Positions 21,833 through 35,715 are shown, counted from the first letter of the stretch. The stretch is DNA of 64,000 nt from an uncultured bacterium (GCA_964012435.1 CAXGSM010000002.1:634-64633); one strand, 5' to 3'. Notes: generated by a model not told the origin, from the letters alone. Made by a program: numbers and translations.

Positions 21833-22235
21833 GCCAAAGCCAAAGCCCCCTCTCCTTATCAAAAAATCTAACTTTTTGATTTAAAGATTGCATAACCATA
21901 AACTCACAAACAAACACTTTGCAACCTTTTAAAACATGCCCTCCGTAAGTTTGACCTTTTTTATCAGATAAGCTTATATGAAAATGAGGAAAAATATCAT
22001 CTTTAAAATTTGAATCAGATTTTAATGAAATATTCCCAGATAAAGAAACTATTTCTAAATCTTCACTAATAGAAATTTCCTCATATTTCTCTTCTTTTTG
22101 GTTGTACCAAGCTATATTTGCCTGCTTTAAAGCACCTATGCCAAAGATCCAACATGATTGAATTTTTCTATTTTTTGCAAAATCAAGCAAGGATTCAAGA
22201 AGATCACATCCATTTTTCAAAGAATACATTTTCAT
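21825..22235 (-). CDS. PPC (DUF296) domain protein
   Basis: GIGALKQANIAWYN...LEIVSLSGNIS...PHFHISLSDKKGQTYGGHVLKGCKVFVCEFMV fits the PPC/DUF296 pattern. 136 aa. Confidence 0.7.
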   Translation of the reverse strand: MKMYSLKNGCDLLESLLDFAKNRKIQSCWIFGIGALKQANIAWYNQKEEKYEEISISEDLEIVSLSGNISLKSDSNFKDDIFPHFHISLSDKKGQTYGGHVLKGCKVFVCEFMVMQSLNQKVRFFDKERGLWLWHD

Positions 22236-23176
22236 AACATAATATTCTCATTTAAAAATTTCAAAAAATCATCAGGAAGTTCCATTCTCCTAACCCTTAT
22301 CCAACAAGGGAAACCTTTTAAGCTCCATCTTGAAGCATCTTTTTTTGTGATGATTACACCGCCGTAAGATCTAGCATTCATGATAGCAAGATTCCTCCAC
22401 TTAGAAGAAACAGCATGATCAGGTATGTTTAGATTAAAACAATCAATACCCTCATCCCTCAGTTCCGCTTCCAAGTTTTTAGAATTTGCTATACCAGCAG
22501 CTAAAGGTAGCCGCATTGACGGAGGGTCTGTTGGCTCCCAATTCTCATTCAGCCAGCTATTCCCCTTTGATTTGATTTTAAATTTCTTAATAGAGGGTGC
22601 CCATCTTTTAATTTCTGAAAAATCTGCATTTGGCATCGAGAGCAAACAATCAGCACGAGAGTAAGAGCTTCCCCACTCTCTTAATAAACCTTTTGGAAAG
22701 GGTATCGATGCCTTATTGCTTGAAACGGAAACTATATTTAGGTCAACCTCTATTGATGACCACTGAAAACCATCTTCTAAAATAATGACGTCGCATCCAA
22801 TTTTAGATAACTCTTTACAAAGGTAATTTTTATCCTTCCCGATTGCAACAATCAAACCAGGAACTTCTTTCTTAATTAGACTCGCTTCATCTCCAGCTTC
22901 AACATTACAAAAATGTTGCCCAGGGCCAAAAATTTTATTATCCCAGTTTCTCTTGCCCCCATAACCCAAAACAACAATTCCTACATTTTTACGCTTTTCT
23001 AATAAATATTTTGAAATTAATATAGAAATTGGTGTTTTTCCTGCTCCACCTGCTTGAACAGAGCCAATACTAATAACTTTAGAAGAAAGCCTGGATGGCC
23101 TTTTCCCATGATGCCTTCGTAATAATTCCCTCAAGAAAGAATAAAAAATTTCCATTAATCCAGTTTTTTTCATCAA
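22232..23176 (-). CDS. lpxK: tetraacyldisaccharide 4'-kinase
   Basis: P-loop context VISIGSVQAGGAGKTP is characteristic of LpxK. 314 aa. Confidence 0.85.
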   Translation of the reverse strand: MMKKTGLMEIFYSFLRELLRRHHGKRPSRLSSKVISIGSVQAGGAGKTPISILISKYLLEKRKNVGIVVLGYGGKRNWDNKIFGPGQHFCNVEAGDEASLIKKEVPGLIVAIGKDKNYLCKELSKIGCDVIILEDGFQWSSIEVDLNIVSVSSNKASIPFPKGLLREWGSSYSRADCLLSMPNADFSEIKRWAPSIKKFKIKSKGNSWLNENWEPTDPPSMRLPLAAGIANSKNLEAELRDEGIDCFNLNIPDHAVSSKWRNLAIMNARSYGGVIITKKDASRWSLKGFPCWIRVRRMELPDDFLKFLNENIML

Positions 23177-23260
23177 TTGCTACTTACTATTTTAGACAGG
23201 CTTGATCAACTTTTATATATTTTACCTAACTAAAAATGGAATAAAAAACACTCTAAATAC

Positions 23261-23296
23261 TTGACAGAGGTAATAATGACGTTATATACTAGTGGG
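23261..23296 (+). promoter_or_regulatory. candidate sigma70-type promoter of the mraZ/dcw operon, plus one GTGGG box
   Basis: TTGACA at 23261-23266. TATATA (23283-23288) or TATACT (23285-23290) lies at 16-18 nt spacing. GTGGG at 23292-23296 resembles the MraZ-box core, but only one copy is seen. Confidence 0.4.
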
Positions 23297-23302
23297 TGAA
23301 AT

Positions 23303-23818
23303 TTGAAGAAAATGGCAATTATTGGCACACAAATCACAATCGACAAAAATGGCAGATTCGTCGTCCCTTCTGATAAAAGAAGAATTTTTGATGAATTAAA
23401 AAATATCATCGTTGTTCTAGATGATGCAGATGAAATAAGACGTAGAGTTTTAATTTACTCTGGAAAAAGTCATTTAACTCATTTAAATCATTTAAGAAAT
23501 CTTGCTTCGGAAGGTTTTGTTACAAAATCTGGCGAAAGGCTAACGAAAGCAGAAAGCTTGAGGATTGTTTCAATGTACGAAGAAAACGCTATTGTTAGAA
23601 GAATAGATCCATCTGGAAGAGTGTCATTACCTTTAGAAGTTCTTGGATTAGCGGGAATTAAAGATATTGCATATATTGGAGGAGTGCAAAGAATTGCACT
23701 TTACTCTCCCCCAATATGGAAGCAACTTGTCGAAGAGAGGGAGCATCTATTGAAATCTCTCAGCTACGAACAAAGAGTTGAATTAGCCGAAATACCCTTC
23801 GAGGGCCATGTTGAATAA
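23303..23818 (+). CDS. mraZ: division/cell-wall cluster transcriptional regulator MraZ
   Basis: Two SpoVT/AbrB-type half-domains with DxxxR-like motifs (DKNGRFVVPS and DPSGRVSLPLEVL). Start is TTG at 23303 or ATG at 23312. Confidence 0.88.
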   Translation: MKKMAIIGTQITIDKNGRFVVPSDKRRIFDELKNIIVVLDDADEIRRRVLIYSGKSHLTHLNHLRNLASEGFVTKSGERLTKAESLRIVSMYEENAIVRRIDPSGRVSLPLEVLGLAGIKDIAYIGGVQRIALYSPPIWKQLVEEREHLLKSLSYEQRVELAEIPFEGHVE

Positions 23819-23844
23819 AAAAAATATGCTGAAAAGGAGGCATT

Positions 23845-23958
23845 ATGAACAATAACAGAAAACCAGGAGCATTAGATTTCTTTTTTGAACTACTAGTTCC
23901 TGTATTTTTTCTAGTAATACTAACTGGTTACTTCATTGTTTCAACACTAGTTGTTTAA
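23845..23958 (+). CDS. micro-ORF, 37-aa single-pass membrane peptide
   Basis: AAGGAGG at 23834-23840 lies 4 nt before the ATG. Translation is MNNNRKPGALDFFFELLVPVFFLVILTGYFIVSTLVV. Not in the ORF track (under 60 aa). Occupies the ftsL/ftsI slot. Confidence 0.5.
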   Translation: MNNNRKPGALDFFFELLVPVFFLVILTGYFIVSTLVV

Positions 23959-24062
23959 TGGTGGAAAATATACCAAAATGGGCTACAACGATAGTCGTTG
24001 GGACTATTGTTGCAAGCGGAATTCTCTTCCTGGCAGGGTCAATCATGGAGGCTTTAATTTAA
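23958..24062 (+). CDS. micro-ORF, 34-aa single-pass membrane peptide
   Basis: TAATG overlap with the preceding micro-ORF, and its stop abuts the murE TTG start. Translation is MVENIPKWATTIVVGTIVASGILFLAGSIMEALI. Confidence 0.4.
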   Translation: MVENIPKWATTIVVGTIVASGILFLAGSIMEALI

Positions 24063-25490
24063 TTGCAAATACAAAAATTAATCTCCACGATTGACTGTCT
24101 ATATCAAGGCGATCTTAATAGTCAAGTTTCAAAAATAAAAGAAGATTCCAGAAAAGTTCAAAAAAGAGATATATTTATAACGCATGCGGGCGTACGCGCA
24201 CACGCAATAGAAGCACAGCAAAGAGGTGCGTCAGCAATACTTAGTCCAGTATTCTTTAGAGATCTTAGAGTAAATCAAATAATCGGAGACACAGCAAGGT
24301 CAAAAAAAGATCTGATCAAAAATCTTTACAAAGAAACAATAAAAAACATAAAAATTATCGGAATCACTGGTACAGATGGAAAAACAACAACCTCAATGCT
24401 TACAAACAGCATCATCAATGAATCAAAAAAATCAGCTTCTATAGGCACACTAGGTGTAAAAGGTAACGATATCAATATCAAAACACAATTAACCACACCT
24501 CAAACTTCTGACTTGCTAAACACTTTAAATAAGTTGTACGAAAAAAAATATGAATATGCAGTTATTGAATGTTCATCACATGGTTTATTTCAGGACAGAA
24601 TAGATCCAATTAAGCTAAAGGCTGCTGCAATCAACAGGGTAACCAGGGATCATTTAGATTTTCATGGAAATCAAAAATACTACTTCAAAGCAAAATCTCT
24701 GATTTTTTCAAAATTAAATAACGGCTCACCTGCAATAATTAACTCAAGCTCTCCATGGCTTGAAGCATTGCAAAAAAAATATCCGAAACTCAATTGGATA
24801 ACATGGGGTAGAGAGAAAGGAGATGTAGTTGGAAAAGTCGTTTCCAAAACATTAACAAAATCAATTATCCAAATCAATCTTCCTGAAAGAAAAAATATCG
24901 AAGTGGAAACAAACCTTGTAGGTGATTTCCAAATAGAAAACATACTTACATCTATATCTTTATGTTATAGCCTTGGTTTTTCTGAATCTGAGATGGTAAA
25001 CGGAATATACGGTTTAAAAAACATACCTGGAAGAATGCAAAAAATAAAAAATGAAAAAACAAATGTATTTATTGATTATGCTCACACACCAAATGCAATA
25101 AAAAATTCAATTCAATCATTAAAAAAAATATGTAAAGGAAGAGTCTTTGCTGTGTTTGGATGTGGTGGAGATAGAGACAAGGGCAAAAGGCCCGAAATGA
25201 TGAAAGCAGGGATGAATGCAGATAAATTATTTATCACGTCAGATAACCCCAGAACAGAAAATCCAGATTCAATAATTAAAGACATGTTGAAAAATTACAA
25301 GCATGCAAAAAGAATTGAAGTTGAAAAAGATAGAAAAAAAGCAATTGAAAGTGCAATTCAATCAGCAAAGAAAGATGATGTTGTACTTATTGCAGGAAAA
25401 GGTCATGAAGAACATCAGATAATTGGTGAAGTAAAGAAGCCTCATAATGATTTGCTTTTCGCTAAGGAGGTTCTTGCAAGTTGCGCCTAA
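24063..25490 (+). CDS. murE: UDP-N-acetylmuramoyl-L-alanyl-D-glutamate--2,6-diaminopimelate ligase
   Basis: GITGTDGKTTT P-loop and the DNPR motif (TSDNPRTENP) typical of meso-DAP-adding MurE. 475 aa. Confidence 0.92.
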   Translation: MQIQKLISTIDCLYQGDLNSQVSKIKEDSRKVQKRDIFITHAGVRAHAIEAQQRGASAILSPVFFRDLRVNQIIGDTARSKKDLIKNLYKETIKNIKIIGITGTDGKTTTSMLTNSIINESKKSASIGTLGVKGNDINIKTQLTTPQTSDLLNTLNKLYEKKYEYAVIECSSHGLFQDRIDPIKLKAAAINRVTRDHLDFHGNQKYYFKAKSLIFSKLNNGSPAIINSSSPWLEALQKKYPKLNWITWGREKGDVVGKVVSKTLTKSIIQINLPERKNIEVETNLVGDFQIENILTSISLCYSLGFSESEMVNGIYGLKNIPGRMQKIKNEKTNVFIDYAHTPNAIKNSIQSLKKICKGRVFAVFGCGGDRDKGKRPEMMKAGMNADKLFITSDNPRTENPDSIIKDMLKNYKHAKRIEVEKDRKKAIESAIQSAKKDDVVLIAGKGHEEHQIIGEVKKPHNDLLFAKEVLASCA

Positions 25491-26842
25491 ACCCCCACAG
25501 TATAGCAAAAGCTTTGCAAACAAAAGGCAAAGGGCAAATGCCGACTGATGATCTTTACATAACTAATGATTCAAGAAAAATAAAACAAAATTCTTTATTT
25601 GTTGCAATAGCTGGCAAAAAAACAAATGGTACAGAGTTTATCAAACAAGCAATACAAAAAGGGGCTTCAGCAATAATTTCAAATAAAAAATTAGACCTTG
25701 GCAAAAAGATATGGTTATTGAACTCTGAAGACCCACAAGCCGCATATGGAAAACTAGCGAATAGAGCAAGGAAAGAATGGAATCAAAATGTCATTGGCAT
25801 AACAGGGTCTGTAGGCAAATCAACAATCAAAGATTTAACTGCCGCAGCACTTGGAACAGCTGATGATGTTGTCGCTTCACCCTACTCCTTTAATAATGAA
25901 ATTGGGCTTCCCTATTCAATACTGAATGCAAAAGGTACAGAAAAATATATGGTTCTTGAAATGGGTGCAAAAAATCCGGGAGATATCAACTACCTAAAAA
26001 AAATTGCAGAACCAGATTGTGCGGTCTATTCCCTCATATGCAACAGCCATGCAGAATACCTAGGTGGTATAGAGGGAGTGATCAAAGAAAAAGGTTCATT
26101 GGTTTCCGGCTGGGGAGAAAATAAAACCTTAGTAATATCGTCAAAAAACAATCACCATCAAGAAATATCTAGACTTTCATCTGGTGCAAAAATAGTCAAA
26201 TGGGGACCTGGTGAAGAAATCAGCTCTAAAGAGGTTAAATTAGACAAATATGGAATTCCTAACTTCAAGATCAAATACAAAAATAAAATATATAAAGTTA
26301 ACTTAAGACTACCAGGTTCTTTTCAGGTTGAAAACTCTTTAGCAGCATTGTCTACAGCTGTTAGCTTCAATATTGATTTAAATGACGCCATAACAAGAAT
26401 AGAAAAAGTTAAACCTCTTCCACACAGAAAAGAAATATATGCGATAAGCAATGATGGAGTTTTGCTAGATGATTGTTACAACGCAGGTGTGAAATCAACA
26501 AGCGAAAGTATCAAATGGGCTTCTTCAATATCTGCTAAAAGACCAAAAATAATGATACTTGGAGATATTTTAGAAACCGGCAAAGATGAAATAAAAATGC
26601 ATAAAAAAATTGGAAAAATAATTAAAGATAACAAATATTCTGAATTTTTAACAGTTGGAAATTTAGCAAAATATGCATTAGAGGAGTCAAGAATAAGTGG
26701 AAAACACTACCCTACAACTGATGATCTTTTGGATGATTTAAAAAAATATGACTTTTCAGCAAAAGTTACACTGGTAAAAGGCTCAAGATCAATGCAGCTT
26801 GAAAAAATTACAAAAAAAATTAGGGAGATTTTTTCTACGTAA
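25481..26842 (+). CDS. murF: UDP-N-acetylmuramoyl-tripeptide--D-alanyl-D-alanine ligase
   Basis: ITNDSRKIKQNSLFVAIAGKKTNG, GITGSVGKST, and its position after murE. Confidence 0.9.
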   Translation: MRLNPHSIAKALQTKGKGQMPTDDLYITNDSRKIKQNSLFVAIAGKKTNGTEFIKQAIQKGASAIISNKKLDLGKKIWLLNSEDPQAAYGKLANRARKEWNQNVIGITGSVGKSTIKDLTAAALGTADDVVASPYSFNNEIGLPYSILNAKGTEKYMVLEMGAKNPGDINYLKKIAEPDCAVYSLICNSHAEYLGGIEGVIKEKGSLVSGWGENKTLVISSKNNHHQEISRLSSGAKIVKWGPGEEISSKEVKLDKYGIPNFKIKYKNKIYKVNLRLPGSFQVENSLAALSTAVSFNIDLNDAITRIEKVKPLPHRKEIYAISNDGVLLDDCYNAGVKSTSESIKWASSISAKRPKIMILGDILETGKDEIKMHKKIGKIIKDNKYSEFLTVGNLAKYALEESRISGKHYPTTDDLLDDLKKYDFSAKVTLVKGSRSMQLEKITKKIREIFST

Positions 26843-26845
26843 CAA

Positions 26846-27892
26846 ATGAACATTTTTAATAAGCACTCTATTTTTTACACATTGTGCTTTTTAATAATTT
26901 TTAATTTTATTTTCAATCAAAATCTGCATAACAACATTCACATAAGTAATAATTTAAACTACCAAAATCTCTTAATTGGAATATTTATAATCACAATATT
27001 TTCATTTAATTCATACTTAAAAATCGCGGACAAAAAAGGCTGGGGTCAGTATGTAAGAGAGGAAGGGTTGGAATCACACCTTAAAAAAACAGGTACGCCA
27101 ACAGCAGCAGGTTGGATTTTTTTCGTGATGTCAATCGTTCCACTTTATATTTTTTTACCTAATTTTTTAATTGAAGAAAACATCCTATGGGTACCCTTGT
27201 TAGCAATAACGATAATGTTCATAACAGGCCTATTAGATGACTTATACAAAATAAACGGTAAAAAAGAGGGTCTTCTTGCAAGATATAGACTTTTAGCTCA
27301 ATTTTTAGTTGGCTCTCTTTTAGGGTATTACTTCCTACCTTGGGATTTATATACCAACTTAGCTGTTGGTTTCTTATTGTTTGGTACTGCCGTCAATGGT
27401 ATTAATTTTACCGATGGATCTGATGGTCTTCTGGCGGCAGTTATCCTTGCAACACCAATTGGACTTTTGATGCTTTATATAGTCTCTCAAGCAATGGGTG
27501 TAGGCTTTCCCATCGTAGGCTCTAAATTTATCTTTATCTTATTAGGTTTGCTGATGCTTTCATGGATACCTTTCAATAAACATCCTGCTAAATTATTTAT
27601 GGGTGAAACTGGCTCTTACACAATTGGGGCAATAGTGGGATTCATTGCAATATATTCACTGCAAAGCGAACCGATGGTTACTTTCTTGCTACTTTCTGTA
27701 CCTGTTTTTCAAATTACAACTGTTGTGATTCAGGTTTTCTTTTATAAAAAATTTGGCAAAAGAGTATTTTTAATGGCTCCGTTTCACCATCATCTTGAAA
27801 AAAAAGGATGGAGCGAAAACAAGATAGCTTATTCAGCTTTCTTTTTTCAATTATTTTTAACTATCTCATTAATAGGAAGTGTTACCTACTGA
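26846..27892 (+). CDS. mraY: phospho-N-acetylmuramoyl-pentapeptide transferase
   Basis: GTPTAAG, LLDDLYKI, NGINFTDGSDGL and APFHHHLEKKGW. The FMGDxGS motif reads FMGETGS here. Confidence 0.9.
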   Translation: MNIFNKHSIFYTLCFLIIFNFIFNQNLHNNIHISNNLNYQNLLIGIFIITIFSFNSYLKIADKKGWGQYVREEGLESHLKKTGTPTAAGWIFFVMSIVPLYIFLPNFLIEENILWVPLLAITIMFITGLLDDLYKINGKKEGLLARYRLLAQFLVGSLLGYYFLPWDLYTNLAVGFLLFGTAVNGINFTDGSDGLLAAVILATPIGLLMLYIVSQAMGVGFPIVGSKFIFILLGLLMLSWIPFNKHPAKLFMGETGSYTIGAIVGFIAIYSLQSEPMVTFLLLSVPVFQITTVVIQVFFYKKFGKRVFLMAPFHHHLEKKGWSENKIAYSAFFFQLFLTISLIGSVTY

Positions 27893-29082
27893 TGAAAACA
27901 CTTATTTACGGTATGGGGATAAGTGGTAAATCGGCTGCTGAATACTTGGAGAGGAAAAAAGAAAAAATTGTTGTTTATGACGATAATAAAAAATCAAAAA
28001 AATACATGAACTGGAATCAAGATCTCTCTAATATCAAGGCAATAGTTGCTTCTCCTGGAATACGCTCTACAAATCCAATTTTAAAAAAAGCTCAAGATTT
28101 AAACATACCGATACACTGTGATATTGGGCTTGTATCTTTTGAAAAAAAATTACCAAAAATAATTTCCGTAACTGGAACTGCTGGAAAAACAACACTTGTA
28201 AGCTTGCTTGTAGATGTTTTAAATGCAGATGGGGAAAAATCAATAGCATTAGGAAACTATGGTCTTTCTCCCTTGGATGTATTGAAAAATAATTATAAAT
28301 ATTGGGTAATAGAGGTTTCAAGTTTTCAATCAAAAAGACTGGCTTTCCTGAAACCAAACATAGGTATCTATTTAAATCTCTCACAAAATCATCTTGACTG
28401 GCATGAAACAATCGAAGATTACAAAATCTGCAAAGGAACAATTTTCAAAAACCAGGATTCTAATGATTTGAGAATAGTAAACCCTGATCTTGAAAAAAAA
28501 TACATAACAGGCAAAGCAAAAGAAAAAGAAATAAAGAAAAATGAATTTTCAAACCTAAGAGAAGATATTCATGAAGACACTTTATCTACTCTTGGCTTAT
28601 GCATAAAAGAATTAAATCTAAATCACAATATAGCAAAACAATCAGTCATGAACTTTAAAACATTAATGCATAGATATCAAAAAATCAATACAAACGATGG
28701 AATTCATTGGATTAATGATTCAAAAGCAACAACACCTCTTGCCACATTGACAGCTATAGAAAGAACTCCTGCTGGATCAATAGTCTTAATGGGGGGAAGC
28801 GACAAAGACCTTAGCTATAAAAAAACATTAGAAAAGATAAAAAAGAAAAAAATGAAATTAATACCATTTGGAGATATATCTCATGCACTACATGAAGAAG
28901 CAAACAAGCTTTCAGTAGATTCTTCAAAACCATGTGAATCATTAAAAAAAGCAATTCAAAAAGCGAAAAATAACGGAAAAGGAAAAACCATATTGTTATC
29001 CCCAGGAACGGCAAGTTTTGACGAATTTGCAGGCTATGAACAAAGAGGAATGTACTTTATCGAAAAAATAAAAGGAGGTTGA
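27892..29082 (+). CDS. murD: UDP-N-acetylmuramoylalanine--D-glutamate ligase
   Basis: MKTLIYGMGISGKSAAEYL and VTGTAGKTT. The ATG at 27892 overlaps the mraY stop (TGATG). The track start at 27808 lies inside mraY. Confidence 0.9.
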   Translation: MKTLIYGMGISGKSAAEYLERKKEKIVVYDDNKKSKKYMNWNQDLSNIKAIVASPGIRSTNPILKKAQDLNIPIHCDIGLVSFEKKLPKIISVTGTAGKTTLVSLLVDVLNADGEKSIALGNYGLSPLDVLKNNYKYWVIEVSSFQSKRLAFLKPNIGIYLNLSQNHLDWHETIEDYKICKGTIFKNQDSNDLRIVNPDLEKKYITGKAKEKEIKKNEFSNLREDIHEDTLSTLGLCIKELNLNHNIAKQSVMNFKTLMHRYQKINTNDGIHWINDSKATTPLATLTAIERTPAGSIVLMGGSDKDLSYKKTLEKIKKKKMKLIPFGDISHALHEEANKLSVDSSKPCESLKKAIQKAKNNGKGKTILLSPGTASFDEFAGYEQRGMYFIEKIKGG

Positions 29083-29084
29083 TT

Positions 29085-30491
29085 ATGGATAGTCAAAAAA
29101 ATATACACTTTATAGCAATGGGAGGAAGTGGCATGGAGCCGCTTGCCAGATGGTGCGCAGAAAAAGGATACAAGGTTTCAGGTTCTGATATTTCAGAAAA
29201 ATCAGTAAAAAAACTAACTGAACTTGGTTTTGACTGCAAGCTAAAACATTCGGAAGAGAATATTCCAGAAAATTGTAATCTTGTTGTTTATTCAAATGCA
29301 ATACCAGAAAACAATATAGAAGTTCAAGAAGCAAAACAAAGAAACATAACAAGATTGCATAGACCGATATTTCTTGCAAAACAATTTAACAAAGCAGAAA
29401 AAAGAATAGCTATAACTGGAACCCATGGAAAAACAACAACGAGCTCTTTAATATCATGGATTGTATATAAATCTGGAAGAGACCCCAATGTTCTTATTGG
29501 TGGAGAAATGCTTAATTGGAATGCTGGCTACAGAGTTGGAAATAATAAATACTTTGTTGTTGAAGCAGATGAAAGTAATCCTGAATTTGTCAATCTAGAC
29601 CCAACAACACTTGTTCTAAACAATCTAGACTGCGATCATATGGATACATACAGAACAATGGAAAATCTTGAAAGGTACATTACGGACTATTTAACAAGCC
29701 GTGATGAGAAATGCAATTTTGTAATGCCTAGAGAAAAAGGATTAGGAATGTCAAAAATACTTGAAAATAGCTCCATTAGACCAGGCAGCATCATTACAAC
29801 AGCTCTCATTGAAAGTGACAAAGAACTTGGGCAAGGAAGCATGGCTGATAGAGCATTGCTGGAAGGGAAAATAATTAGCGAAGGCGAAAGAGGGATGCTG
29901 ATGAGGGTTCTTTATTACGGCTTGCCTTTAGGTGAATTCTTTTTGCCTCTTTCTGGCAAGCATAACGCAAGAAATGTCCTTTCAGCAATTGGTGCGTGTT
30001 TAACATTAGGGATGGATGAAAATGAAATCTACGAAGGGTTAAGGTCTTTCAAAGGTGTAGGCAGAAGAATGGAAAGAATTGGAAACACTGCTGTAGGTGA
30101 AATTTTTTCAGACTATGCACATCATCCCACAGCGCTAAGAGAAACACTAAAAAGTATTAAAAGTAAATACAAAAACAAAAAAATTGGAATTGTTTTCGAG
30201 CCACATAGATATACAAGGTTACAAAAAACACATGAACAATTTTCAAATGTTTTAAATTCTTTTGAATTCAATCAAAAACTTATATTGCCAATCTATACAG
30301 CAGGGGAAAAAGAAATTGATGGAATTAGCAGTGAACTTCTTGTAAGCAATAATTCTGATTGCCAACTTGTTCAGCGAGAAGACATGATTGAAAATCTTGT
30401 AAATGGTGAAAATGACATAATTATTTTTCTAGGAGCGGGAAACATACATAAAATTGCTAATCAAACATTCCAGCTTTGTCAAATTAATTAA
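29085..30491 (+). CDS. murC: UDP-N-acetylmuramate--L-alanine ligase
   Basis: IHFIAMGGSGMEPLA and ITGTHGKTTT. AAGGAGG lies 6 nt upstream of the ATG at 29085. Confidence 0.92.
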   Translation: MDSQKNIHFIAMGGSGMEPLARWCAEKGYKVSGSDISEKSVKKLTELGFDCKLKHSEENIPENCNLVVYSNAIPENNIEVQEAKQRNITRLHRPIFLAKQFNKAEKRIAITGTHGKTTTSSLISWIVYKSGRDPNVLIGGEMLNWNAGYRVGNNKYFVVEADESNPEFVNLDPTTLVLNNLDCDHMDTYRTMENLERYITDYLTSRDEKCNFVMPREKGLGMSKILENSSIRPGSIITTALIESDKELGQGSMADRALLEGKIISEGERGMLMRVLYYGLPLGEFFLPLSGKHNARNVLSAIGACLTLGMDENEIYEGLRSFKGVGRRMERIGNTAVGEIFSDYAHHPTALRETLKSIKSKYKNKKIGIVFEPHRYTRLQKTHEQFSNVLNSFEFNQKLILPIYTAGEKEIDGISSELLVSNNSDCQLVQREDMIENLVNGENDIIIFLGAGNIHKIANQTFQLCQIN

Positions 30492-31360
30492 TGCTACAAA
30501 AATTCAAAGACTTTGATGGAAGAAATCTAACCACCTTCAAGATTGGTGGGAGGATAAAGAAACTTCTAATTGCATCAACTCTCAAAGAGCTAAAAGAAGC
30601 AATTGAAATTCTTTCGAATAAAAAAAGATGGCTGATTTTAGGTGCTGGAAGCAATGTTTTAATATCAGATAAAGGACTAGATGGAGCAATAAAACTAAAA
30701 GGAGATTTTTTGAAAATTACACATCATAACAATCTAGTATCTTGTGGTGGTGGAACGTTCGGATCAGCGGTAATCAAATATGCTGAAAATCAATCTTTAT
30801 CTGGAATGGAGCCATTTTCAGGATTGCCAGGAACGATTGGAGGATGGATAGCAACAAACTGCGGCCCAAAAGAAATGAATATTATTGACATACTCGAATC
30901 AGTTACAGTTATAAATAAAAAAACACTTCAAGTAAAAACACTTCAAAAAAATGACTTTGGATATGGCTATAGATATTGCTCGCTAAAAAATCAATACGGA
31001 ATAATAAAGGCCAACTTTAAATTACAAAATAAACAAAAAGAAAAAATAAAGCAAGAAAATCAAAAATTCATGAAATACAGATTATCAACACAGCCAAAAG
31101 GAAGCTCTGTAGGTTGTATATTTAAAAATCCCAAAGGTAAATCAGCTGGAAAAATAATAGATTCATGTGGGCTTAAAGGATTCAAGATTAAAAATTTACA
31201 AGTTTCAAAAACACATGGAAATTTCATAATAAATCAAGGAAAATCAAAAGCTGAAGATGTTTTTGAAATGATAGAAGCAATCAAAAAAAATGTATTCTCA
31301 AAAACAGGAATAAAACTAACTGCTGAAGTAGAAAAAATAGGACATTTTAAGCATGACTGA
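30491..31360 (+). CDS. murB: UDP-N-acetylenolpyruvoylglucosamine reductase
   Basis: TTFKIGG, GAGSNVLISD and the C-terminal GCIFKNP motif. 289 aa. TAATG junction with murC. Confidence 0.9.
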   Translation: MLQKFKDFDGRNLTTFKIGGRIKKLLIASTLKELKEAIEILSNKKRWLILGAGSNVLISDKGLDGAIKLKGDFLKITHHNNLVSCGGGTFGSAVIKYAENQSLSGMEPFSGLPGTIGGWIATNCGPKEMNIIDILESVTVINKKTLQVKTLQKNDFGYGYRYCSLKNQYGIIKANFKLQNKQKEKIKQENQKFMKYRLSTQPKGSSVGCIFKNPKGKSAGKIIDSCGLKGFKIKNLQVSKTHGNFIINQGKSKAEDVFEMIEAIKKNVFSKTGIKLTAEVEKIGHFKHD

Positions 31361-32351
31361 CAACCTCTTCGGAAAACAAGAAAAAAACAATCTAGATATA
31401 AACGTGAAAATCATTGCTTTAGGTGGTGCAGGATGCAAGATACTAAAAAGAATCAATAGCAGATTGCATAAAAGCATTCAAAAAGATGCAATAGACACAT
31501 CTATATCAAGCTTGAATAACCTTTCAGAAGATGTCAAAAAATACAACATAGCAGTAGATAGGTATGGAGGCAAAGGTACTGATTGTGATTATTACGGCTT
31601 AAAAGAATACCTTGTTGAAGACAAGATGGAAAATACAAAAATTGAAAAAACAGAAAATATTGATTTGATAATTTTCATATCCTGTTTAGGCTATGGTAGC
31701 GGATCAGCAATTCTTCCATGGGCGCTTGAACAGCTGGAACAATCTCTAGACCAACTTGGAAGAAAAACAATTAAGTTAGGTTTTTTCATCCAACCTACAG
31801 TAAGTGAAAATCCTGATTCTCTGGAGATAATTGATGACTCCTTGAAGCATTCAAATGACAAACTTGATTCTTATTTGATAATTTCAAATGACAAACTTTA
31901 CTCAAGCTTTCAAGGAACTTTGGAAGATGCCTTGCATAAAGCTGACTCCTGCCTTATGGAAATTATTGAGCTAATCATTGAGAACAATTACAACACTATA
32001 AATCTAGATAAAGCAAACATACTTGAGTTTTTCAGAAATGCAGGACAAATACATTTTGGACAAGGGAAATCAAAAGAAGAAACCATGATACATATGGCTA
32101 TTGAAGAATCATTTGAAGGAACACTCTTAAGACCTTTGCCAATCAACAAACCCCCTCATAGGGCTTTATGCTGGATAAATGGCCCTCCAATCAGTGCTTG
32201 CTTGCATCAAGAAATAGTAGAAAGTATTTCCTCAAGGTTATCTCCTGCCATAAACGGCAAGCAAGGAAAAATTAACATATCAATAAATACAATGAATCAA
32301 AAAATGCTTGAAATACATTTGATGCTCAGTAGCAAACAGGGAATTGCCTGA
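31353..32351 (+). CDS. highly divergent FtsZ/tubulin-family protein lacking a C-terminal tail
   Basis: Collinear by eye with the FtsZ core. T1 is IIALGGAGCKIL, the NTD-like region is AIDTS, and the G-box reads GYGSGSA (31689-31709). IISNDKL corresponds to IPNDKL. T7 reads NLDKAN (32001-32018). It lies at the end of the mur genes and before yggS. Confidence 0.65.
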   Translation: MTDNLFGKQEKNNLDINVKIIALGGAGCKILKRINSRLHKSIQKDAIDTSISSLNNLSEDVKKYNIAVDRYGGKGTDCDYYGLKEYLVEDKMENTKIEKTENIDLIIFISCLGYGSGSAILPWALEQLEQSLDQLGRKTIKLGFFIQPTVSENPDSLEIIDDSLKHSNDKLDSYLIISNDKLYSSFQGTLEDALHKADSCLMEIIELIIENNYNTINLDKANILEFFRNAGQIHFGQGKSKEETMIHMAIEESFEGTLLRPLPINKPPHRALCWINGPPISACLHQEIVESISSRLSPAINGKQGKINISINTMNQKMLEIHLMLSSKQGIA

Positions 32352-32352
32352 A

Positions 32353-32943
32353 ATGAAAATACCTTCAGGTGTAAGAATCATTGCGGCTGTAAAAAACAGA
32401 AATGATTCAGAGTTAGAAAAAATCCATTCAAAAGGTATACAAGATTTTGGAGAAAATAAATTACAAGAACATCTAAACAGGTCTGAAAAAATCAAAAGCA
32501 AAAATATAAATTGGCATTTCATTGGAAGGATTCAAATGAATAAAATTAAAAAAATATCCAAAGAATTCAAATTCATACACTCAATATCTAGATTTTCAGA
32601 AATCAAACAAATATCAAAACTAGGACCCCCTTATCCAACATGTTTAATTCAAATAAACCTAGGTGATAGTTCAAAATCAGGAATCAATCCAACAGACTTA
32701 AAGCCTTTATTAGACGTGTCAAGAAAAGAAAATCCTGAACTGCCGATTAAAGGTCTTATGACAATGCCTCCTTATACAACAAATCCGGAAGAAAATAGAA
32801 TGTGGTTTAGAGAGGTTAAAAAATTGGGTGAAGAAAATTTCAAAAAGCCATTATTGTCAATGGGAACAACTCAAGATTGGAAAGTAGCAATCTCTGAAGG
32901 TTCGAACATCATAAGATTGGGGAGGAAGATTTTTGAATTCTGA
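32353..32943 (+). CDS. yggS: YggS/YlmE-family pyridoxal-phosphate homeostasis protein
   Basis: IIAAVKNR (Lys for PLP), FGENKLQE, WHFIGRIQMNKIKKI, and C-terminal IRLGRKIF. Confidence 0.85.
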   Translation: MKIPSGVRIIAAVKNRNDSELEKIHSKGIQDFGENKLQEHLNRSEKIKSKNINWHFIGRIQMNKIKKISKEFKFIHSISRFSEIKQISKLGPPYPTCLIQINLGDSSKSGINPTDLKPLLDVSRKENPELPIKGLMTMPPYTTNPEENRMWFREVKKLGEENFKKPLLSMGTTQDWKVAISEGSNIIRLGRKIFEF

Positions 32944-33718
32944 ATGGATAGAACATTTAATACTTGGCTTAATCCAAGGAATTACAGAATTTTTACCAAT
33001 TTCATCTACTGGCCACCTTCTTCTTGTAAGAAACTTTTTTGGAATAAGTCCAGAATCAAATTCTGCTATCCTGACTATATTGCACCTTGGAACGCTTTTG
33101 AGCCTTTTGGTGGTTGAAGGTAAAAATTTAACTAAAATGATATTATCCAAGCATCCATTTCGCAATATTGAATTCCATGCAATATTCATAACAACACTTG
33201 CAACTTTGGTTTTTTATTTATCTTTTCAAAATTTATTTGAATCAAGCTTTCAAGATGCAGGAAGTGTTGCAATAGGTTTAGTTTTCACTGCATTTATTTT
33301 AGTTTATGCAGAATTAAGAAAATCAACATCATTTAAAAATCTGAGGCACACAACTTTTTTGGACTGGATCGCAATAGGTTTCCTGCAAGCAATCGCAATC
33401 ATACCTGGGGTTAGTAGATCTGGAGCAACAATAGCTGGGGGATTGCTCATTGGTATGAACAGATATGAGTCTGTTAAATTTTCTTTTATGCTCTCGATAC
33501 CAGTCATAATAGGAGCAACTCTCATAAAGCTGGAAAATATAGAATCGTATATTGCCGTTAATCCAGGACCTGCAATATTAGGATTTTTAACTGCTTTTTC
33601 ATTTGGGATATGGGCAATGAAGTTCATGTTAAATTATGTCAAAACAAATAAGCTTGAACCTTTTGCTATATATTGCTTGATATTAGGATTCCTTTCAATG
33701 TTGGTGGTAAATCGATGA
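32933..33718 (+). CDS. uppP: undecaprenyl-diphosphate phosphatase
   Basis: GLIQGITEFLPISSTGHL and PGVSRSGATI motifs. 261 aa and polytopic. TTG start (no in-frame ATG before the first motif). Confidence 0.9.
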   Translation: MNSEWIEHLILGLIQGITEFLPISSTGHLLLVRNFFGISPESNSAILTILHLGTLLSLLVVEGKNLTKMILSKHPFRNIEFHAIFITTLATLVFYLSFQNLFESSFQDAGSVAIGLVFTAFILVYAELRKSTSFKNLRHTTFLDWIAIGFLQAIAIIPGVSRSGATIAGGLLIGMNRYESVKFSFMLSIPVIIGATLIKLENIESYIAVNPGPAILGFLTAFSFGIWAMKFMLNYVKTNKLEPFAIYCLILGFLSMLVVNR

Positions 33719-35715
33719 AGCTAAAAATAAACCTAGAAACTTTTTTGATTTTATTCGTCATGTATCACACAATTGCAACAACAACACAAATATTAGATCC
33801 ACTATCAAAAAACTACAGAGAGTTATTTATCACTTTATGGGGAGTGAATTCATGGATTTACCCTTTGCTTCTTGTTTATCCCATCTTAAATTCAATTAAT
33901 GAAAAAAAATTCGCCAGACTTCTTTTGATTCCTTGGATTTTTTTACTTCTAGGGTCTGGAGATAATGCTGGCATATGGGGAAAAAAAATCTATTCTTTTG
34001 TGGAGGGCATAATTGACAAAGAAGGAATAATAATATTAAATACATTTACCTTTATTTCGATTGGTATTATCTACTTTGATCTAGATAAACATATAAAAAA
34101 TATCTTTCAAGACTTGTATAAAAAAAATAACTTCGAGAAAGATTTCAATTCTGGAAATTTTGAGAAAGATTTTGAATCATTAAAAAAGTCCAAAATAACA
34201 ACAAGCACCTTAGTTAAAAAGGATACGAAAAAGAAAGTTGCTCAAAAAACAAAAAGCCAAAAAAGCAACAAAAAAACAATTAAAAATCTAGAAAGTAAAC
34301 CAAGTTCAAAAGGGTACCATATACCAACAGAACTTTTACACAAACCAGAGCCAGTAATAGAAATGGGGATGCAAGAAGTAAAAGACATGGCTGACATAAT
34401 TATAAAAACCTTAAAAGATTGCGCTGGATCCGAAACATTTTATGAAAGCTGTGCTCAAGGACGTTCTGTTGTAAGGTTTGAATTTAGAGTTTCCCCATCT
34501 GCAAATTTATCAAAAATAAGAAGCTCTGCAGAAAATATTGCAGTAGCTATTGCAAGTGTAGGAAAGGTAAGAATAGAAGCACCTGTTATTGGAAAAAGCA
34601 CTATAGCTGTAGAGATACCTCAAAGAAATAAATCGATTTTAAGATTGAGTGAAGTTATAAAAAATCAAAAAAATGCAAATGGTTTAAATTTCATAATGGG
34701 AGCCCGAGTAGATGGAAGTCTATTTAATGTAGATTTAGCATCACTGCCTCATATGTTAATTGCAGGAGCAACACAATCTGGAAAATCAGTTTTTGTAAAT
34801 ACATTATTATTAAATTTGATATACAACAAAAGTCCAAAAGATCTAAAACTAATACTTGCGGATATGAAAAAAGTTGAATTGACTCTTTATAAAGATATTC
34901 CTCATCTGCTAGTTCCAATTGTATCAACTCCAGATCCAGCATTAAATGCATTAGATTGGGCAAGAGTAGAGGTTGATCGTAGATATGAATTATTGGAAGA
35001 GTCCAAAACAAAAAATTTAGAAGAATATAACAAAAAGTCTAAAAACAAACTCCCGTACATAGTTATAGTTTTGGAAGAACTTTCCGCACTTCTAATAACA
35101 TCCAAAAACAGAGTAATAGAATCCCTCTCTGATCTTTCAGAAAGAGCAAGAGCAGCAGGAGTCCATTTAATTGCAACAATGCAAAGGCCTGATTCAAAAA
35201 AACTAGACGGATCCGTTAAGGCTAACTTGCCTGGGAAAGTTAGTTTCAGGTTAGGAACAAGATCTGACTCAATAACAGTTTTCGGTAAGGGTGGAGCAGA
35301 GAACCTTTTAGGCAGAGGAGATCTTTATTTTGATAGTCCAACACACCCTGAATTAATAAGATGCCAAGCTCCATTGGTAGAAACAGAAGAAATAGAAAAA
35401 GTACTTGATTATCTAATTAAAAATTATGGTGAAGCTGAATACGACAAATCAGTTGAAGGCGAAGTGATAACACCAATAGATGAAATTAATGACGATATCT
35501 TGGAGGGCATGTCGAGCACTGATCGTCAGCTAATCAATGATATTAGACAAAGAATCAAAGATGAAGATGCAATAAGCGTAAGTCAACTTCAAAGACTTTT
35601 TGGTATTGGATACAATAAAGCATCAAGAATGATGATGATAATGGAACAATTAAACTGGGTTCATCAAGACCCAAATACATCAGCAGGCAAAAAAGGATGG
35701 GTGGTTGATCTGTGA
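33715..35715 (+). CDS. ftsK: DNA translocase FtsK/SpoIIIE
   Basis: 4 N-terminal TM helices and a K-rich linker. Walker A is GATQSGKSV and Walker B is VIVLEE. The C-terminal gamma winged-helix is SVSQLQRLFGIGYNKASRMM. The ATG at 33715 overlaps the uppP stop (ATGA). Confidence 0.9.
   Translation: MKLKINLETFLILFVMYHTIATTTQILDPLSKNYRELFITLWGVNSWIYPLLLVYPILNSINEKKFARLLLIPWIFLLLGSGDNAGIWGKKIYSFVEGIIDKEGIIILNTFTFISIGIIYFDLDKHIKNIFQDLYKKNNFEKDFNSGNFEKDFESLKKSKITTSTLVKKDTKKKVAQKTKSQKSNKKTIKNLESKPSSKGYHIPTELLHKPEPVIEMGMQEVKDMADIIIKTLKDCAGSETFYESCAQGRSVVRFEFRVSPSANLSKIRSSAENIAVAIASVGKVRIEAPVIGKSTIAVEIPQRNKSILRLSEVIKNQKNANGLNFIMGARVDGSLFNVDLASLPHMLIAGATQSGKSVFVNTLLLNLIYNKSPKDLKLILADMKKVELTLYKDIPHLLVPIVSTPDPALNALDWARVEVDRRYELLEESKTKNLEEYNKKSKNKLPYIVIVLEELSALLITSKNRVIESLSDLSERARAAGVHLIATMQRPDSKKLDGSVKANLPGKVSFRLGTRSDSITVFGKGGAENLLGRGDLYFDSPTHPELIRCQAPLVETEEIEKVLDYLIKNYGEAEYDKSVEGEVITPIDEINDDILEGMSSTDRQLINDIRQRIKDEDAISVSQLQRLFGIGYNKASRMMMIMEQLNWVHQDPNTSAGKKGWVVDL

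What the first reader, a model, noticed from the sequence alone, without database searches (positions are those of the whole stretch)
23303..32351. Division/cell-wall cluster contains only Mur enzymes and lacks ftsL, ftsI, ftsW, murG, ddl, ftsQ and ftsA
- The observed order is mraZ, two micro-ORFs, murE, murF, mraY, murD, murC, murB, FtsZ-like.
- Every junction overlaps or has a gap of 26 nt or less, so no further genes can hide inside.
- Canonical clusters are mraZ-rsmH-ftsL-ftsI-murE-murF-mraY-murD-ftsW-murG-murC-(murB)-ddl-ftsQ-ftsA-ftsZ.
- All membrane and divisome components are therefore missing: the SEDS-bPBP pair FtsW/FtsI, FtsL/Q, FtsA, and also MurG.
- The cytoplasmic Mur ligases keep their canonical order.
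- The cluster then runs directly into yggS-uppP-ftsK-lgt.
Basis: partly seen in the sequence, partly recalled or inferred. Interest (0 to 1): 0.6.

Follow-up and report, generated by a model that had tools for sequence, protein, structure and literature searches.

The report
Cell-wall operon stripped of divisome genes
An uncultured, small-genome marine bacterium still makes a cell wall but has lost the enzyme pair and connector proteins that normally build the division septum, and keeps only a remodelled FtsZ, so it probably divides in an unusual way.

Summary
Window 23303-35715 reads mraZ, two conserved micro-ORFs, murE, murF, mraY, murD, murC, murB, a divergent FtsZ, yggS, uppP, ftsK. All junctions overlap or have gaps of 26 nt or less. 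Six genomes of the genus share the order, and contigs from other marine metagenome runs cover it.

The "missing" genes fall into three classes.
- Encoded elsewhere: murG (next to murJ), ddl, and rsmH, which lies in the window on the minus strand at 20900-21862.
- Never present in this class: ftsA.
- Truly lost: ftsI, ftsW, ftsQ, ftsB and a full-length ftsL.

The sister family (G007) keeps rsmH-ftsL-ftsI-murE-murF-mraY-murD-ftsW-murC-murB-ftsQ-ftsZ-yggS-x-uppP-ftsK, so these are clean excisions from a syntenic ancestor.

All seven genomes of the window's family hold one SEDS protein and one class B PBP. By synteny and scores these are RodA and PBP2, the cell-elongation pair. The own genome also has a class A PBP; the relatives have matching genes.

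The FtsZ has an altered G-box, lacks the second T7 aspartate and has no C-terminal tail. It is nevertheless under strong purifying selection, and metatranscriptome contigs match it.

How the cell divides is inferred, not shown.

The parts
20900..21862 (-). rsmH (mraW) 16S rRNA methyltransferase. It has moved out of the cluster to the opposite strand.
   Evidence: PF01795 scores 179.5 bits. It is 31% identical to the dcw-encoded rsmH of G007. In G006 rsmH is still between mraZ and micro-ORF 1.
21825..23176 (-). lpxK (22232-23176) and a PCC-domain gene (21825-22235). They form a minus-strand operon with rsmH, divergent from mraZ.
   Evidence: PF02606 LpxK scores 141 bits and PF03479 scores 114 bits. 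The same arrangement is seen in the genus and in G006.
23303..23818 (+). mraZ, a divergent copy and the first gene of the cluster.
   Evidence: PF02381 scores 32 bits against a cut-off of 23. TIGR00242 scores 31 bits, below its cut-off. dN/dS is 0.05-0.11. Metatranscriptome contigs cover it.
23845..23958 (+). Micro-ORF 1, a 37-aa single-pass membrane peptide in the slot that ftsL holds in the sister family.
   Evidence: It is nearly invariant in the genus (A2). G006 has it directly after rsmH. dN/dS is 0.01-0.07. A metatranscriptome contig covers 23817-23989. It has no relative outside its own cluster among 1.84 billion representative proteins.
23958..24062 (+). Micro-ORF 2, a 34-aa single-pass membrane peptide specific to the genus.
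   Evidence: It is conserved as a protein in five genus loci and absent from G006.
24063..29082 (+). murE (24063-25490), murF (25481-26842), mraY (26846-27892) and murD (27892-29082).
   Evidence: NCBIfam scores: murE 411 bits, murF 345 bits, mraY 147 bits, murD 321 bits. There is no room for ftsI before murE or for ftsW after murD.
29079..31360 (+). murC (29079-30491) and murB (30491-31360).
   Evidence: TIGR01082 scores 345 bits and NF010480 scores 259 bits. murD overlaps murC by 4 nt, at the place where G007 has ftsW.
31353..32351 (+). Divergent, tail-less FtsZ. It is the only FtsZ-family gene in the genome.
   Evidence: PF00091 scores 43.5 bits. TIGR00065 scores 54 bits against a cut-off of 295. 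It aligns to the FtsZ core of PDB 2r6r over residues 17-299. Motifs: T1 GGAGCK, G-box GYGSGSA, T7 NLDKAN, no C-terminal peptide. dN/dS is 0.05-0.07. Metatranscriptome contigs cover 31383-31724.
32344..35715 (+). yggS (32344-32943), uppP (32933-33718) and ftsK (33715-35715). This downstream part is shared with the sister family.
   Evidence: TIGR00044 scores 128 bits. BacA scores 224 bits. FtsK shows its alpha, motor and gamma domains. G007 has the same order, with an extra 141-aa ORF between yggS and uppP.

Best explanation
[quoted passage not shown] The bacterium is probably double-membraned, because lpxK and an SLH-type tether are in the window. Its family has dismantled the septal peptidoglycan-synthase module.

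**What changed.** The nearest sister family still has rsmH-ftsL-ftsI-murE-murF-mraY-murD-ftsW-murC-murB-ftsQ-ftsZ-yggS-x-uppP-ftsK. Compared with that order, the window's family has made these changes:
- It excised ftsI, ftsW, ftsQ and the 141-aa gene x.
- It replaced ftsL with a 37-aa membrane peptide.
- It lost ftsB from its own separate locus.
- It remodelled FtsZ. The G-box is changed, the second T7 aspartate is lost and the C-terminal anchoring peptide is gone.

**What stayed.**
- The lipid II pathway: murB-F, mraY, murG, murJ, ddl and uppP.
- The elongation machinery: mreB, ORFs in the mreC and mreD positions, PBP2 and RodA.
- One class A PBP.
- ftsK.

All of the above is shown by the searches.

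**How it probably works (inferred).** Septal wall is made by the elongation pair RodA-PBP2 and/or by the class A PBP. The conserved FtsZ relative probably cannot hydrolyse GTP in the normal way. It would act as a static or slowly turning-over scaffold, held at the membrane by an unknown partner. The micro-ORF peptides and FtsK are candidates for that partner.
For: **Gene identities and tight packing:**

**The sister family G007 keeps the full set.**
- It has ftsL(124 aa)-ftsI, ftsW and ftsQ at the syntenic places.
- Its FtsZ scores 242 bits, has canonical motifs and carries a DLPPFRL tail.

**Counts across G000-G006 against G007.**
- SEDS: one per genome against two.
- Class B PBP: one against two.
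- FtsQ POTRA_1: none in seven genomes against one.
- FtsB/DivIC: none in the family against one in G007. The single family hit is G005:C12, a 28% GC contig that carries a second, 45%-identical enolase, so it is read as contamination.
- The ahcY-epimerase neighbours of G007's ftsB are kept in the own genome, without ftsB after them.

**The retained pair is RodA-PBP2.**
- The SEDS gene sits in the same gap-pgk-tpi-SEDS-28x-aa context as G007's non-dcw copy.
- It scores higher on the RodA model than on the FtsW model: 167 against 158 bits in G000, and 205 against 186 in G006.
- The bPBP follows mreB and scores 363 bits on pbp2_mrdA against 145 bits or less on the SpoVD/FtsI-type models.
- It scores 227 bits against G007's mre-linked PBP2 and 76 bits against its FtsI.

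**Other retained genes.**
- Class A PBP with Transgly and Transpeptidase domains.
- MreB at 332 bits.
- MurJ and MurG adjacent on C1.
- Ddl.

**The FtsZ relative is functional.** Its dN/dS of 0.05-0.07 is lower than that of murE and murB, at 0.10-0.15. Marine metatranscriptome contigs match it.

**Assembly support.** Contigs from other metagenome runs cover the junctions. There is no second cluster.
Against: - All seven family genomes are MAGs rated 71-86% complete.
- The own genome's PBP2 is cut by a contig end, so single absences carry little weight. Only the pattern across genomes and the syntenic deletions do.
- FtsL, FtsB and FtsQ are small, fast-evolving bitopic proteins. Chlamydial homologues escaped annotation for years (PMC4643143). 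Very divergent versions, or the 37-aa peptide as a functional FtsL stump, cannot be excluded.
- The RodA-over-FtsW preference of the SEDS protein is small by score. It rests mainly on synteny.
- Nothing here shows where any protein localises. Nothing shows whether the FtsZ relative binds or hydrolyses GTP.
- The shape and lifestyle of the organism are unknown.
- murA, FtsEX, ZapA and the amidases were not searched.
Confidence: 0.7

Rival explanations
1. Pure rearrangement. All the genes missing from the cluster are intact elsewhere in the genome, so only gene order has changed.
For: This is true for murG, ddl and rsmH. One SEDS gene and one class B PBP also lie outside the cluster.
Against: - There is only one SEDS and one bPBP per genome in seven genomes, against two each in G007.
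- That pair is orthologous to the elongation pair.
- No FtsQ hit appears in any of the seven genomes.
- No genuine FtsB hit appears either.
Confidence: 0.04
2. Artefact of incomplete MAGs or of search sensitivity. The divisome genes exist but lie in unassembled regions, or are too divergent for the HMMs.
For: - Completeness is 71-86%.
- The own PBP2 is truncated at a contig end.
- The f1 ORFs in the mreC and mreD positions are not recognised by Pfam either, so divergence does blind the models in this lineage.
Against: - The genes are missing from their ancestral positions inside contiguous, tightly overlapping operons in six genus genomes and in G006.
- SEDS and transpeptidase domains are robust families and were found whenever present.
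- If each genome independently missed a gene about 20% of the time, seven genomes would almost never all miss the same five genes.
- The flanking genes of G007's ftsB are retained without it.
Confidence: 0.1
3. Same gene content, different mechanism. The class A PBP alone makes the septum under a still GTP-active FtsZ ring, as in Clostridioides difficile, and RodA-PBP2 stays purely elongational.
For: - A class A PBP is present in the own genome, and ORFs of about the same length with transpeptidase hits are in all family genomes.
- C. difficile and many Clostridia lack FtsW-FtsI and use PBP1 for septation (PMC10693644).
- The guanine-contacting NDK motif and part of T1 are kept in the FtsZ relative.
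Against: - C. difficile keeps canonical FtsZ, FtsA/SepF and FtsQLB. Here they are absent or remodelled.
- The second T7 aspartate is replaced in both genera, by N in one and H in the other. By my own knowledge of E. coli D212 mutants, this residue is needed for hydrolysis.
Confidence: 0.25
4. The FtsZ relative no longer acts in division at all. Division is driven by MreB and the elongation machinery, as in Chlamydiae, or happens by budding. The FtsZ relative has some other job.
For: - The C-terminal peptide, the anchors, MinC and the whole FtsQLB-WI module are lost.
- MreB, PBP2 and RodA are kept.
Against: - The gene keeps its place at the end of the dcw operon, just before ftsK.
- It is under stronger purifying selection than the mur genes.
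- Metatranscriptome contigs match it and other parts of the cluster.
Confidence: 0.2

Closest known systems
Canonical dcw cluster (mraZ-rsmH-ftsL-ftsI-murE-murF-mraY-murD-ftsW-murG-murC-murB-ddl-ftsQ-ftsA-ftsZ)
   Same: It starts with mraZ and ends with an FtsZ homologue. The order murE-murF-mraY-murD ... murC-murB is kept. The genes are tightly packed on one strand.
   Different: ftsL, ftsI, ftsW, ftsQ and ftsA are absent from the cluster and have no detectable homologue in the genome. murG, ddl and rsmH are encoded elsewhere. Two micro-ORFs fill the ftsL/ftsI slot.
Clostridioides difficile and other Clostridia without FtsW-FtsI (PMC10693644)
   Same: There is no divisome-specific SEDS/bPBP pair. 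RodA-PBP2 and a single class A PBP are retained, so a non-canonical septal synthase is required.
   Different: C. difficile keeps canonical FtsZ, FtsA, SepF and FtsQ/L/B homologues, and its dcw SEDS/bPBP pair was repurposed for sporulation. Here the pair and FtsQ/FtsB are gone, and FtsZ itself is remodelled.
Chlamydiae: division without FtsZ, organised by MreB with PBP2 (PMC3187750; Ouellette 2012, cited in PMC5814848)
   Same: A reduced genome with peptidoglycan, in which elongation-machinery proteins are candidates for doing the work of division.
   Different: Chlamydiae have no FtsZ at all. They keep both SEDS/bPBP pairs and FtsQ/L homologues (PMC4643143) and lack class A PBPs (PMC5814848). 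This lineage is roughly the reverse.
Planctomycetota: FtsZ lost, and the remaining dcw genes non-essential in Planctopirus limnophila (PMC12283558)
   Same: A lineage-wide erosion of the canonical divisome, with intermediate gene sets.
   Different: Planctomycetes lost ftsZ, ftsA and ftsB but keep ftsI, ftsW and ftsQ. Here an FtsZ relative is kept and ftsI, ftsW and ftsQ are lost.
E. coli FtsZ T7-loop (D212) mutants (my own knowledge, not checked in a paper here)
   Same: The second aspartate of NxDxxD is replaced, by N in this genus and by H in G006.
   Different: Those are laboratory mutants with division defects. Here the change is fixed, conserved, and accompanied by G-box changes and loss of the tail.

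Membership tests
Canonical dcw cluster | mraZ-rsmH at the 5' end | tested here: inconclusive
   mraZ is present but weak, at 32 bits. rsmH has moved to the minus strand at 20900-21862. It is still in place in G006.
Canonical dcw cluster | ftsL-ftsI before murE | tested here: not met
   Only two micro-ORFs, of 37 and 34 aa, lie between mraZ and murE. G007 has a 124-aa ORF and ftsI there.
Canonical dcw cluster | murE-murF-mraY-murD and murC-murB in conserved order | tested here: met
Canonical dcw cluster | ftsW-murG between murD and murC | tested here: not met
   murD overlaps murC by 4 nt. murG is on C1. The only SEDS gene is on C3.
Canonical dcw cluster | ddl-ftsQ-ftsA before ftsZ | tested here: not met
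   murB overlaps the FtsZ-like gene by 8 nt. ddl is on C1. There is no POTRA_1 hit in seven genomes. No FtsA hit scores above MreB level in eight genomes.
FtsZ (TIGR00065 / PF00091) | Tubulin/FtsZ GTPase-domain homology | tested here: met
   PF00091 scores 43.5 bits against a cut-off of 33. PDB FtsZ chains match at E=1e-10 over residues 17-299. The N-terminal domain is modelled with pLDDT 70-92.
FtsZ (TIGR00065 / PF00091) | Equivalog score cut-off | tested here: not met
   54 bits against a cut-off of 295. G007 scores 242 bits.
FtsZ (TIGR00065 / PF00091) | G-box GGGTG(S/T)G and T7 NxDxxD | tested here: not met
   The G-box reads GYGSGSA and the T7 loop reads NLDKAN. G006 has GGATGSA and EIDPGH. 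G007 has GGGTGSG and NRDLSD.
FtsZ (TIGR00065 / PF00091) | C-terminal linker plus a conserved peptide that binds membrane anchors | tested here: not met
   The protein ends right after the core. G007 carries ...DLPPFRLDRAS.
FtsZ (TIGR00065 / PF00091) | GTP-dependent polymerisation and hydrolysis | not testable with these tools
   This needs purified protein.
FtsW-FtsI-less, class A PBP-driven division (C. difficile type) | No divisome SEDS/bPBP pair, with RodA-PBP2 and one class A PBP present | tested here: met
FtsW-FtsI-less, class A PBP-driven division (C. difficile type) | Canonical FtsZ, its anchors and FtsQLB retained | tested here: not met
FtsW-FtsI-less, class A PBP-driven division (C. 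difficile type) | Class A PBP required for septation | not testable with these tools
   This needs genetics or inhibitors in a culture.
Chlamydia-type MreB-dependent division | No FtsZ homologue | tested here: not met
   A conserved FtsZ relative is present, and metatranscriptome contigs match it.
Chlamydia-type MreB-dependent division | MreB, RodA and PBP2 present | tested here: met

The most novel reading that the evidence does not exclude
This marine family may be a natural intermediate on the way from FtsZ-ring division to FtsZ-independent division. It has discarded the whole module coupled to FtsZ treadmilling: the FtsZ tail, the anchors, FtsQLB and FtsW-FtsI. It would divide with the elongation machinery (MreB-RodA-PBP2) and/or a class A PBP. 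A tail-less FtsZ that cannot hydrolyse GTP would survive as a static scaffold, possibly tethered by the lineage-specific 37-aa peptide that replaced FtsL.
Probability: 0.3. Interest if true: 0.8.

Novelty: new variant of a known kind. Interest (0 to 1): 0.64.

Why it matters
FtsW-FtsI and their FtsQLB regulators were long treated as universal in walled bacteria. The first well-studied exception, C. difficile, was reported only in 2023 (PMC10693644).

This lineage goes further than that exception.
- It has peptidoglycan, MreB, RodA-PBP2 and a class A PBP.
- It has no detectable FtsW, FtsI, FtsQ, FtsB, FtsA or SepF.
- Its only FtsZ relative has lost the tail and a catalytic residue, yet it is strongly conserved.

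It therefore poses a direct question: what does FtsZ do when nothing known is left for it to recruit or guide? The sister family keeps the full set, so together they give a natural comparison series (G007, then G006, then this genus).

I found no paper describing this lineage or this gene set. The limits are that the organism is uncultured and that all genomes are MAGs.

Tried and rejected
- **Second dcw cluster or paralogues.** None was found in the assembly, so the partial-duplicate idea is rejected.
- **DivIC hit in G005.** It lies on a 28% GC contig with a second enolase. That enolase is 45% identical to the own one, while the true orthologue is 91% identical. I read it as contamination, not as evidence for ftsB in the genus.
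- **G007's 141-aa ORF in the sepF position.** It has no Pfam SepF match, no PDB relative and no homologue in 5.8 billion proteins. It cannot be called SepF.
- **Micro-ORF 1 as an FtsL remnant.**
  - A profile search of 1.84 billion representative proteins found only its own cluster.
  - phmmer with G007's 124-aa ORF against the own genome found nothing.
  - tblastn with the same ORF against the G006 locus found nothing significant.
  - The idea remains a guess based on position.
- **Remnants of ftsQ, ftsW or ftsI in G006.** tblastn found none.
- **Naming the phylum.** Record titles say only "bacterium" or "uncultured bacterium". Metagenome records carry no taxon. A paper search on the accession gave nothing relevant.
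- **Structure model of the FtsZ relative.** Mean pLDDT was 64 with only eight sequences, and the C-terminal domain was poorly modelled. I did not use it for a fold search.
- **MinC.** It is absent from all eight genomes, G007 included, so it does not discriminate.

Full report
**Observation**

On the plus strand it runs:
- mraZ 23303-23818 (weak, 32 bits)
- micro-ORF 1, 23845-23958
- micro-ORF 2, 23958-24062
- murE 24063-25490
- murF 25481-26842
- mraY 26846-27892
- murD 27892-29082
- murC 29079-30491
- murB 30491-31360
- an FtsZ-family gene 31353-32351
- yggS 32344-32943
- uppP 32933-33718
- ftsK 33715-35715
- lgt 35770-36654

Every junction overlaps or has a gap of 26 nt or less. There is no room for further genes or for pseudogene remnants.

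The order is identical in five other genomes of the genus. Logan contigs from other marine metagenome runs cover the junctions. X3 covers 22800-30031 in one piece, X4 covers 29350-31505 and X5 covers 31223-32469. One of these runs may be the sample the MAG came from.

One correction is needed. rsmH is in the window, at 20900-21862 on the minus strand. It is the last gene of an lpxK-PCC-rsmH operon that diverges from mraZ.

**The genome and its relatives**

The window is C2:634-64633 of a 1.10-Mb assembly with 28 contigs, about 35% GC and 81% estimated completeness.

- The held collection has five more species of the same genus (G001-G005).
- It has one other genus of the family (G006, 54% GC).
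- It has one genome of a sister family in the same class (G007, 2.1 Mb, 93% complete).
- After that the tool offers only "same domain" genomes.

Record titles say only "bacterium", so I could not name the phylum. The sequence occurs in marine metagenome runs filed under about a dozen studies. lpxK in the window, and earlier notes on an SLH-type tether, suggest a double-membraned cell. That is inference.

**Where the "missing" genes are**

Six-frame HMM searches of the own genome and of G001-G007 gave three classes.

*Present elsewhere.*
- murG is at C1:99731-100690 (224 bits over the full length). It lies directly downstream of murJ.
- ddl is at C1:88268-89149.
- rsmH is in the window.
- murG and ddl are also outside the cluster in G007. 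Their absence from the cluster is therefore old.

*Absent from the whole class.* The best "FtsA" hits in all eight genomes are MreB, at 53-64 bits against a cut-off of 176. The Pfam SepF and MinC models also hit nothing in any of the eight.

*Lost in the window's family only.*

| Gene family | G000-G006 | G007 |
|---|---|---|
| SEDS | 1 each | 2 |
| Class B PBP | 1 each | 2 |
| FtsQ POTRA_1 | 0 | 1 |
| DivIC/FtsB | 0 (one contaminant hit) | 1 |

- The own genome's class B PBP is an N-terminal fragment at the contig end, C22:1-721. It is 85% identical to the G005 protein.
- The one family hit for DivIC is G005:C12. That contig has 28% GC and carries a second enolase only 45% identical to the own one. 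G005's true enolase, on C5, is 91% identical. I therefore read that contig as contamination.
- The ahcY-epimerase genes that precede ftsB in G007 are conserved in the own genome. There they are followed by a 315-aa membrane protein instead of ftsB.

**Comparison with the sister family**

On G007 contig C21 the cluster reads rsmH, a 124-aa transmembrane and coiled-coil ORF (the ftsL position), ftsI, murE, murF, mraY, murD, ftsW, murC, murB, ftsQ, ftsZ, yggS, a 141-aa ORF, uppP and ftsK. The downstream yggS-uppP-ftsK block proves the two clusters are orthologous.

G006 is an intermediate.
- It reads mraZ, rsmH, micro-ORF 1, murE, murF, mraY, murD, murC, murB, an unassigned spacer of about 0.8 kb, the FtsZ-like gene, yggS, uppP and ftsK.
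- Micro-ORF 1 therefore sits exactly where ftsL sits in G007.
- The spacer has the length of G007's ftsQ but shows no detectable similarity to it.

The window's genus then moved rsmH, gained micro-ORF 2 and closed every gap.

**Which SEDS/bPBP pair survived**

*The SEDS gene.*
- The sole SEDS gene of the family follows gap-pgk-tpiA and precedes a conserved secreted protein of about 285 aa.
- G007's non-dcw SEDS has the same neighbours.
- By NCBIfam the family proteins score higher on RodA than on FtsW: 167 against 158 bits in G000, and 205 against 186 in G006.
- G007's dcw copy prefers FtsW (240 against 193 bits). Its pgk-linked copy prefers RodA (265 against 212 bits).

*The class B PBP.*
- The sole class B PBP follows mreB, two unrecognised ORFs in the mreC and mreD positions, and a 119-aa membrane ORF.
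- It scores 363 bits on pbp2_mrdA against 145 bits or less on the SpoVD/FtsI-type models.
- It scores 227 bits against G007's mre-linked PBP2 and 76 bits against G007's FtsI.

The elongation pair survived and the division pair was lost. A 687-aa class A PBP with Transgly and Transpeptidase domains is on C4. ORFs of about 690 aa with similar transpeptidase hits occur in all family genomes.

**The FtsZ relative**

It is the only FtsZ-family gene in each family genome.

- It aligns with solved FtsZ structures over the whole core, residues 17-299.
- The T1 loop reads GGAGCK.
- The G-box reads GYGSGSA. G006 has GGATGSA.
- The T7 loop reads NLDKAN. G006 has EIDPGH.
- The chain ends right after the core.
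- G007 has GGGGTN, GGGTGSG and NRDLSD, plus a DLPPFRL tail.
- Identity to G007's FtsZ is 21.5%. The neighbouring genes are 31-37% identical.

This is not decay.
- Within the genus its dN/dS is 0.05-0.07, lower than that of murE, murB and yggS at 0.10-0.15.
- Contigs from marine metatranscriptome runs match it at 97% or better. They also match mraZ, micro-ORF 1, murD, murC, uppP and ftsK. DNA carry-over in such libraries cannot be excluded.
- Word-indexed searching found only three clusters of close relatives among 5.8 billion proteins.
- The AlphaFold model, built from eight sequences, supports the N-terminal GTPase fold only.

**Interpretation**

Shown:
- a coordinated, family-wide loss of FtsI, FtsW, FtsQ, FtsB and a full-length FtsL;
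- loss of the FtsZ tail and of a T7 residue;
- retention of lipid II synthesis, MreB-PBP2-RodA, a class A PBP and FtsK.

Inferred:
- Septal wall is made by RodA-PBP2 and/or the class A PBP. C. difficile is the precedent for the class A PBP route (PMC10693644). Chlamydiae are the precedent for using elongation-machinery proteins in division (PMC3187750, PMC5814848).
- The second T7 aspartate is needed for hydrolysis in E. coli, by my own knowledge. The FtsZ relative is therefore likely a poor GTPase and may be a static scaffold.
- Its membrane tether is unknown. The micro-ORF peptides are candidates by position only.

**Novelty**

[quoted passage not shown] Planctomycetes lost ftsZ, ftsA and ftsB but keep ftsI, ftsW and ftsQ (PMC12283558).

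The combination seen here is the mirror image: an FtsZ relative is kept while FtsW, FtsI, FtsQ and FtsB are lost. I found no description of it in the paper library. It is a new variant of a known kind of event, lineage-specific divisome reduction, and not a new kind of system.

**Caveats**

- All genomes are MAGs.
- Small bitopic proteins can escape HMMs.
- The RodA call for the SEDS protein rests mostly on synteny.
- No localisation or biochemical data exist.

Noticed in passing
window 23845-23958: Micro-ORF 1 (37 aa, MNNNRKPGALDFFFELLVPVFFLVILTGYFIVSTLVV) is one of the most conserved genes in the cluster. Its dN/dS is 0.01-0.07. A nearly identical copy occurs in the 54% GC sister genus, directly after rsmH, in the ftsL slot. 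It has no relative outside its own cluster among 1.84 billion representative proteins. A metatranscriptome contig covers it.
   Followed up: partly
window 23958-24062: Micro-ORF 2 (34 aa, one transmembrane segment) starts in a TAATG overlap with micro-ORF 1 and ends one base before the murE start. It is conserved in the genus and absent from G006.
   Followed up: partly
window 20900-23176 (minus strand): rsmH has been moved behind lpxK and a PCC-domain gene. The result is an lpxK-PCC-rsmH operon divergent from mraZ. In G006 rsmH is still in the dcw cluster.
   Followed up: yes
L044 (G006:C19), reverse-strand positions about 10250-11060: An unassigned spacer of about 0.8 kb lies between murB and the FtsZ-like gene. 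It is the same length as ftsQ in G007 (771 nt) but shows no detectable similarity. It may be a decayed ftsQ.
   Followed up: partly
G005:C12:23129-24696 (L045): This 28% GC contig carries a second enolase, 45% identical to the own one, and an FtsB/DivIC gene. It looks like contamination of that MAG.
   Followed up: yes
G000:C22:1-3274 (L023): The own genome's PBP2 is cut by the contig end; only 240 aa are left. The ORFs in the mreC and mreD positions are not recognised by Pfam. An extra 119-aa membrane ORF sits between the mreD-position ORF and pbp2, and G007 has no such ORF.
   Followed up: partly
G000:C3:38071-38946 (L001:2595-3452): A 285-aa secreted protein with no Pfam family follows RodA. 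It is conserved in that position in G006 and G007 (phmmer E=5e-10). It may be an unknown partner of RodA.
   Followed up: no
L020:9946-10371 (G007): A 141-aa orphan ORF lies between yggS and uppP, the place where sepF sits in Firmicutes. It has no Pfam, PDB or database relative. It is absent from the window's family.
   Followed up: partly
window 22800-34000: The organism is widespread. Near-identical contigs occur in marine metagenome runs filed under about a dozen studies, and in several marine metatranscriptome runs.
   Followed up: partly
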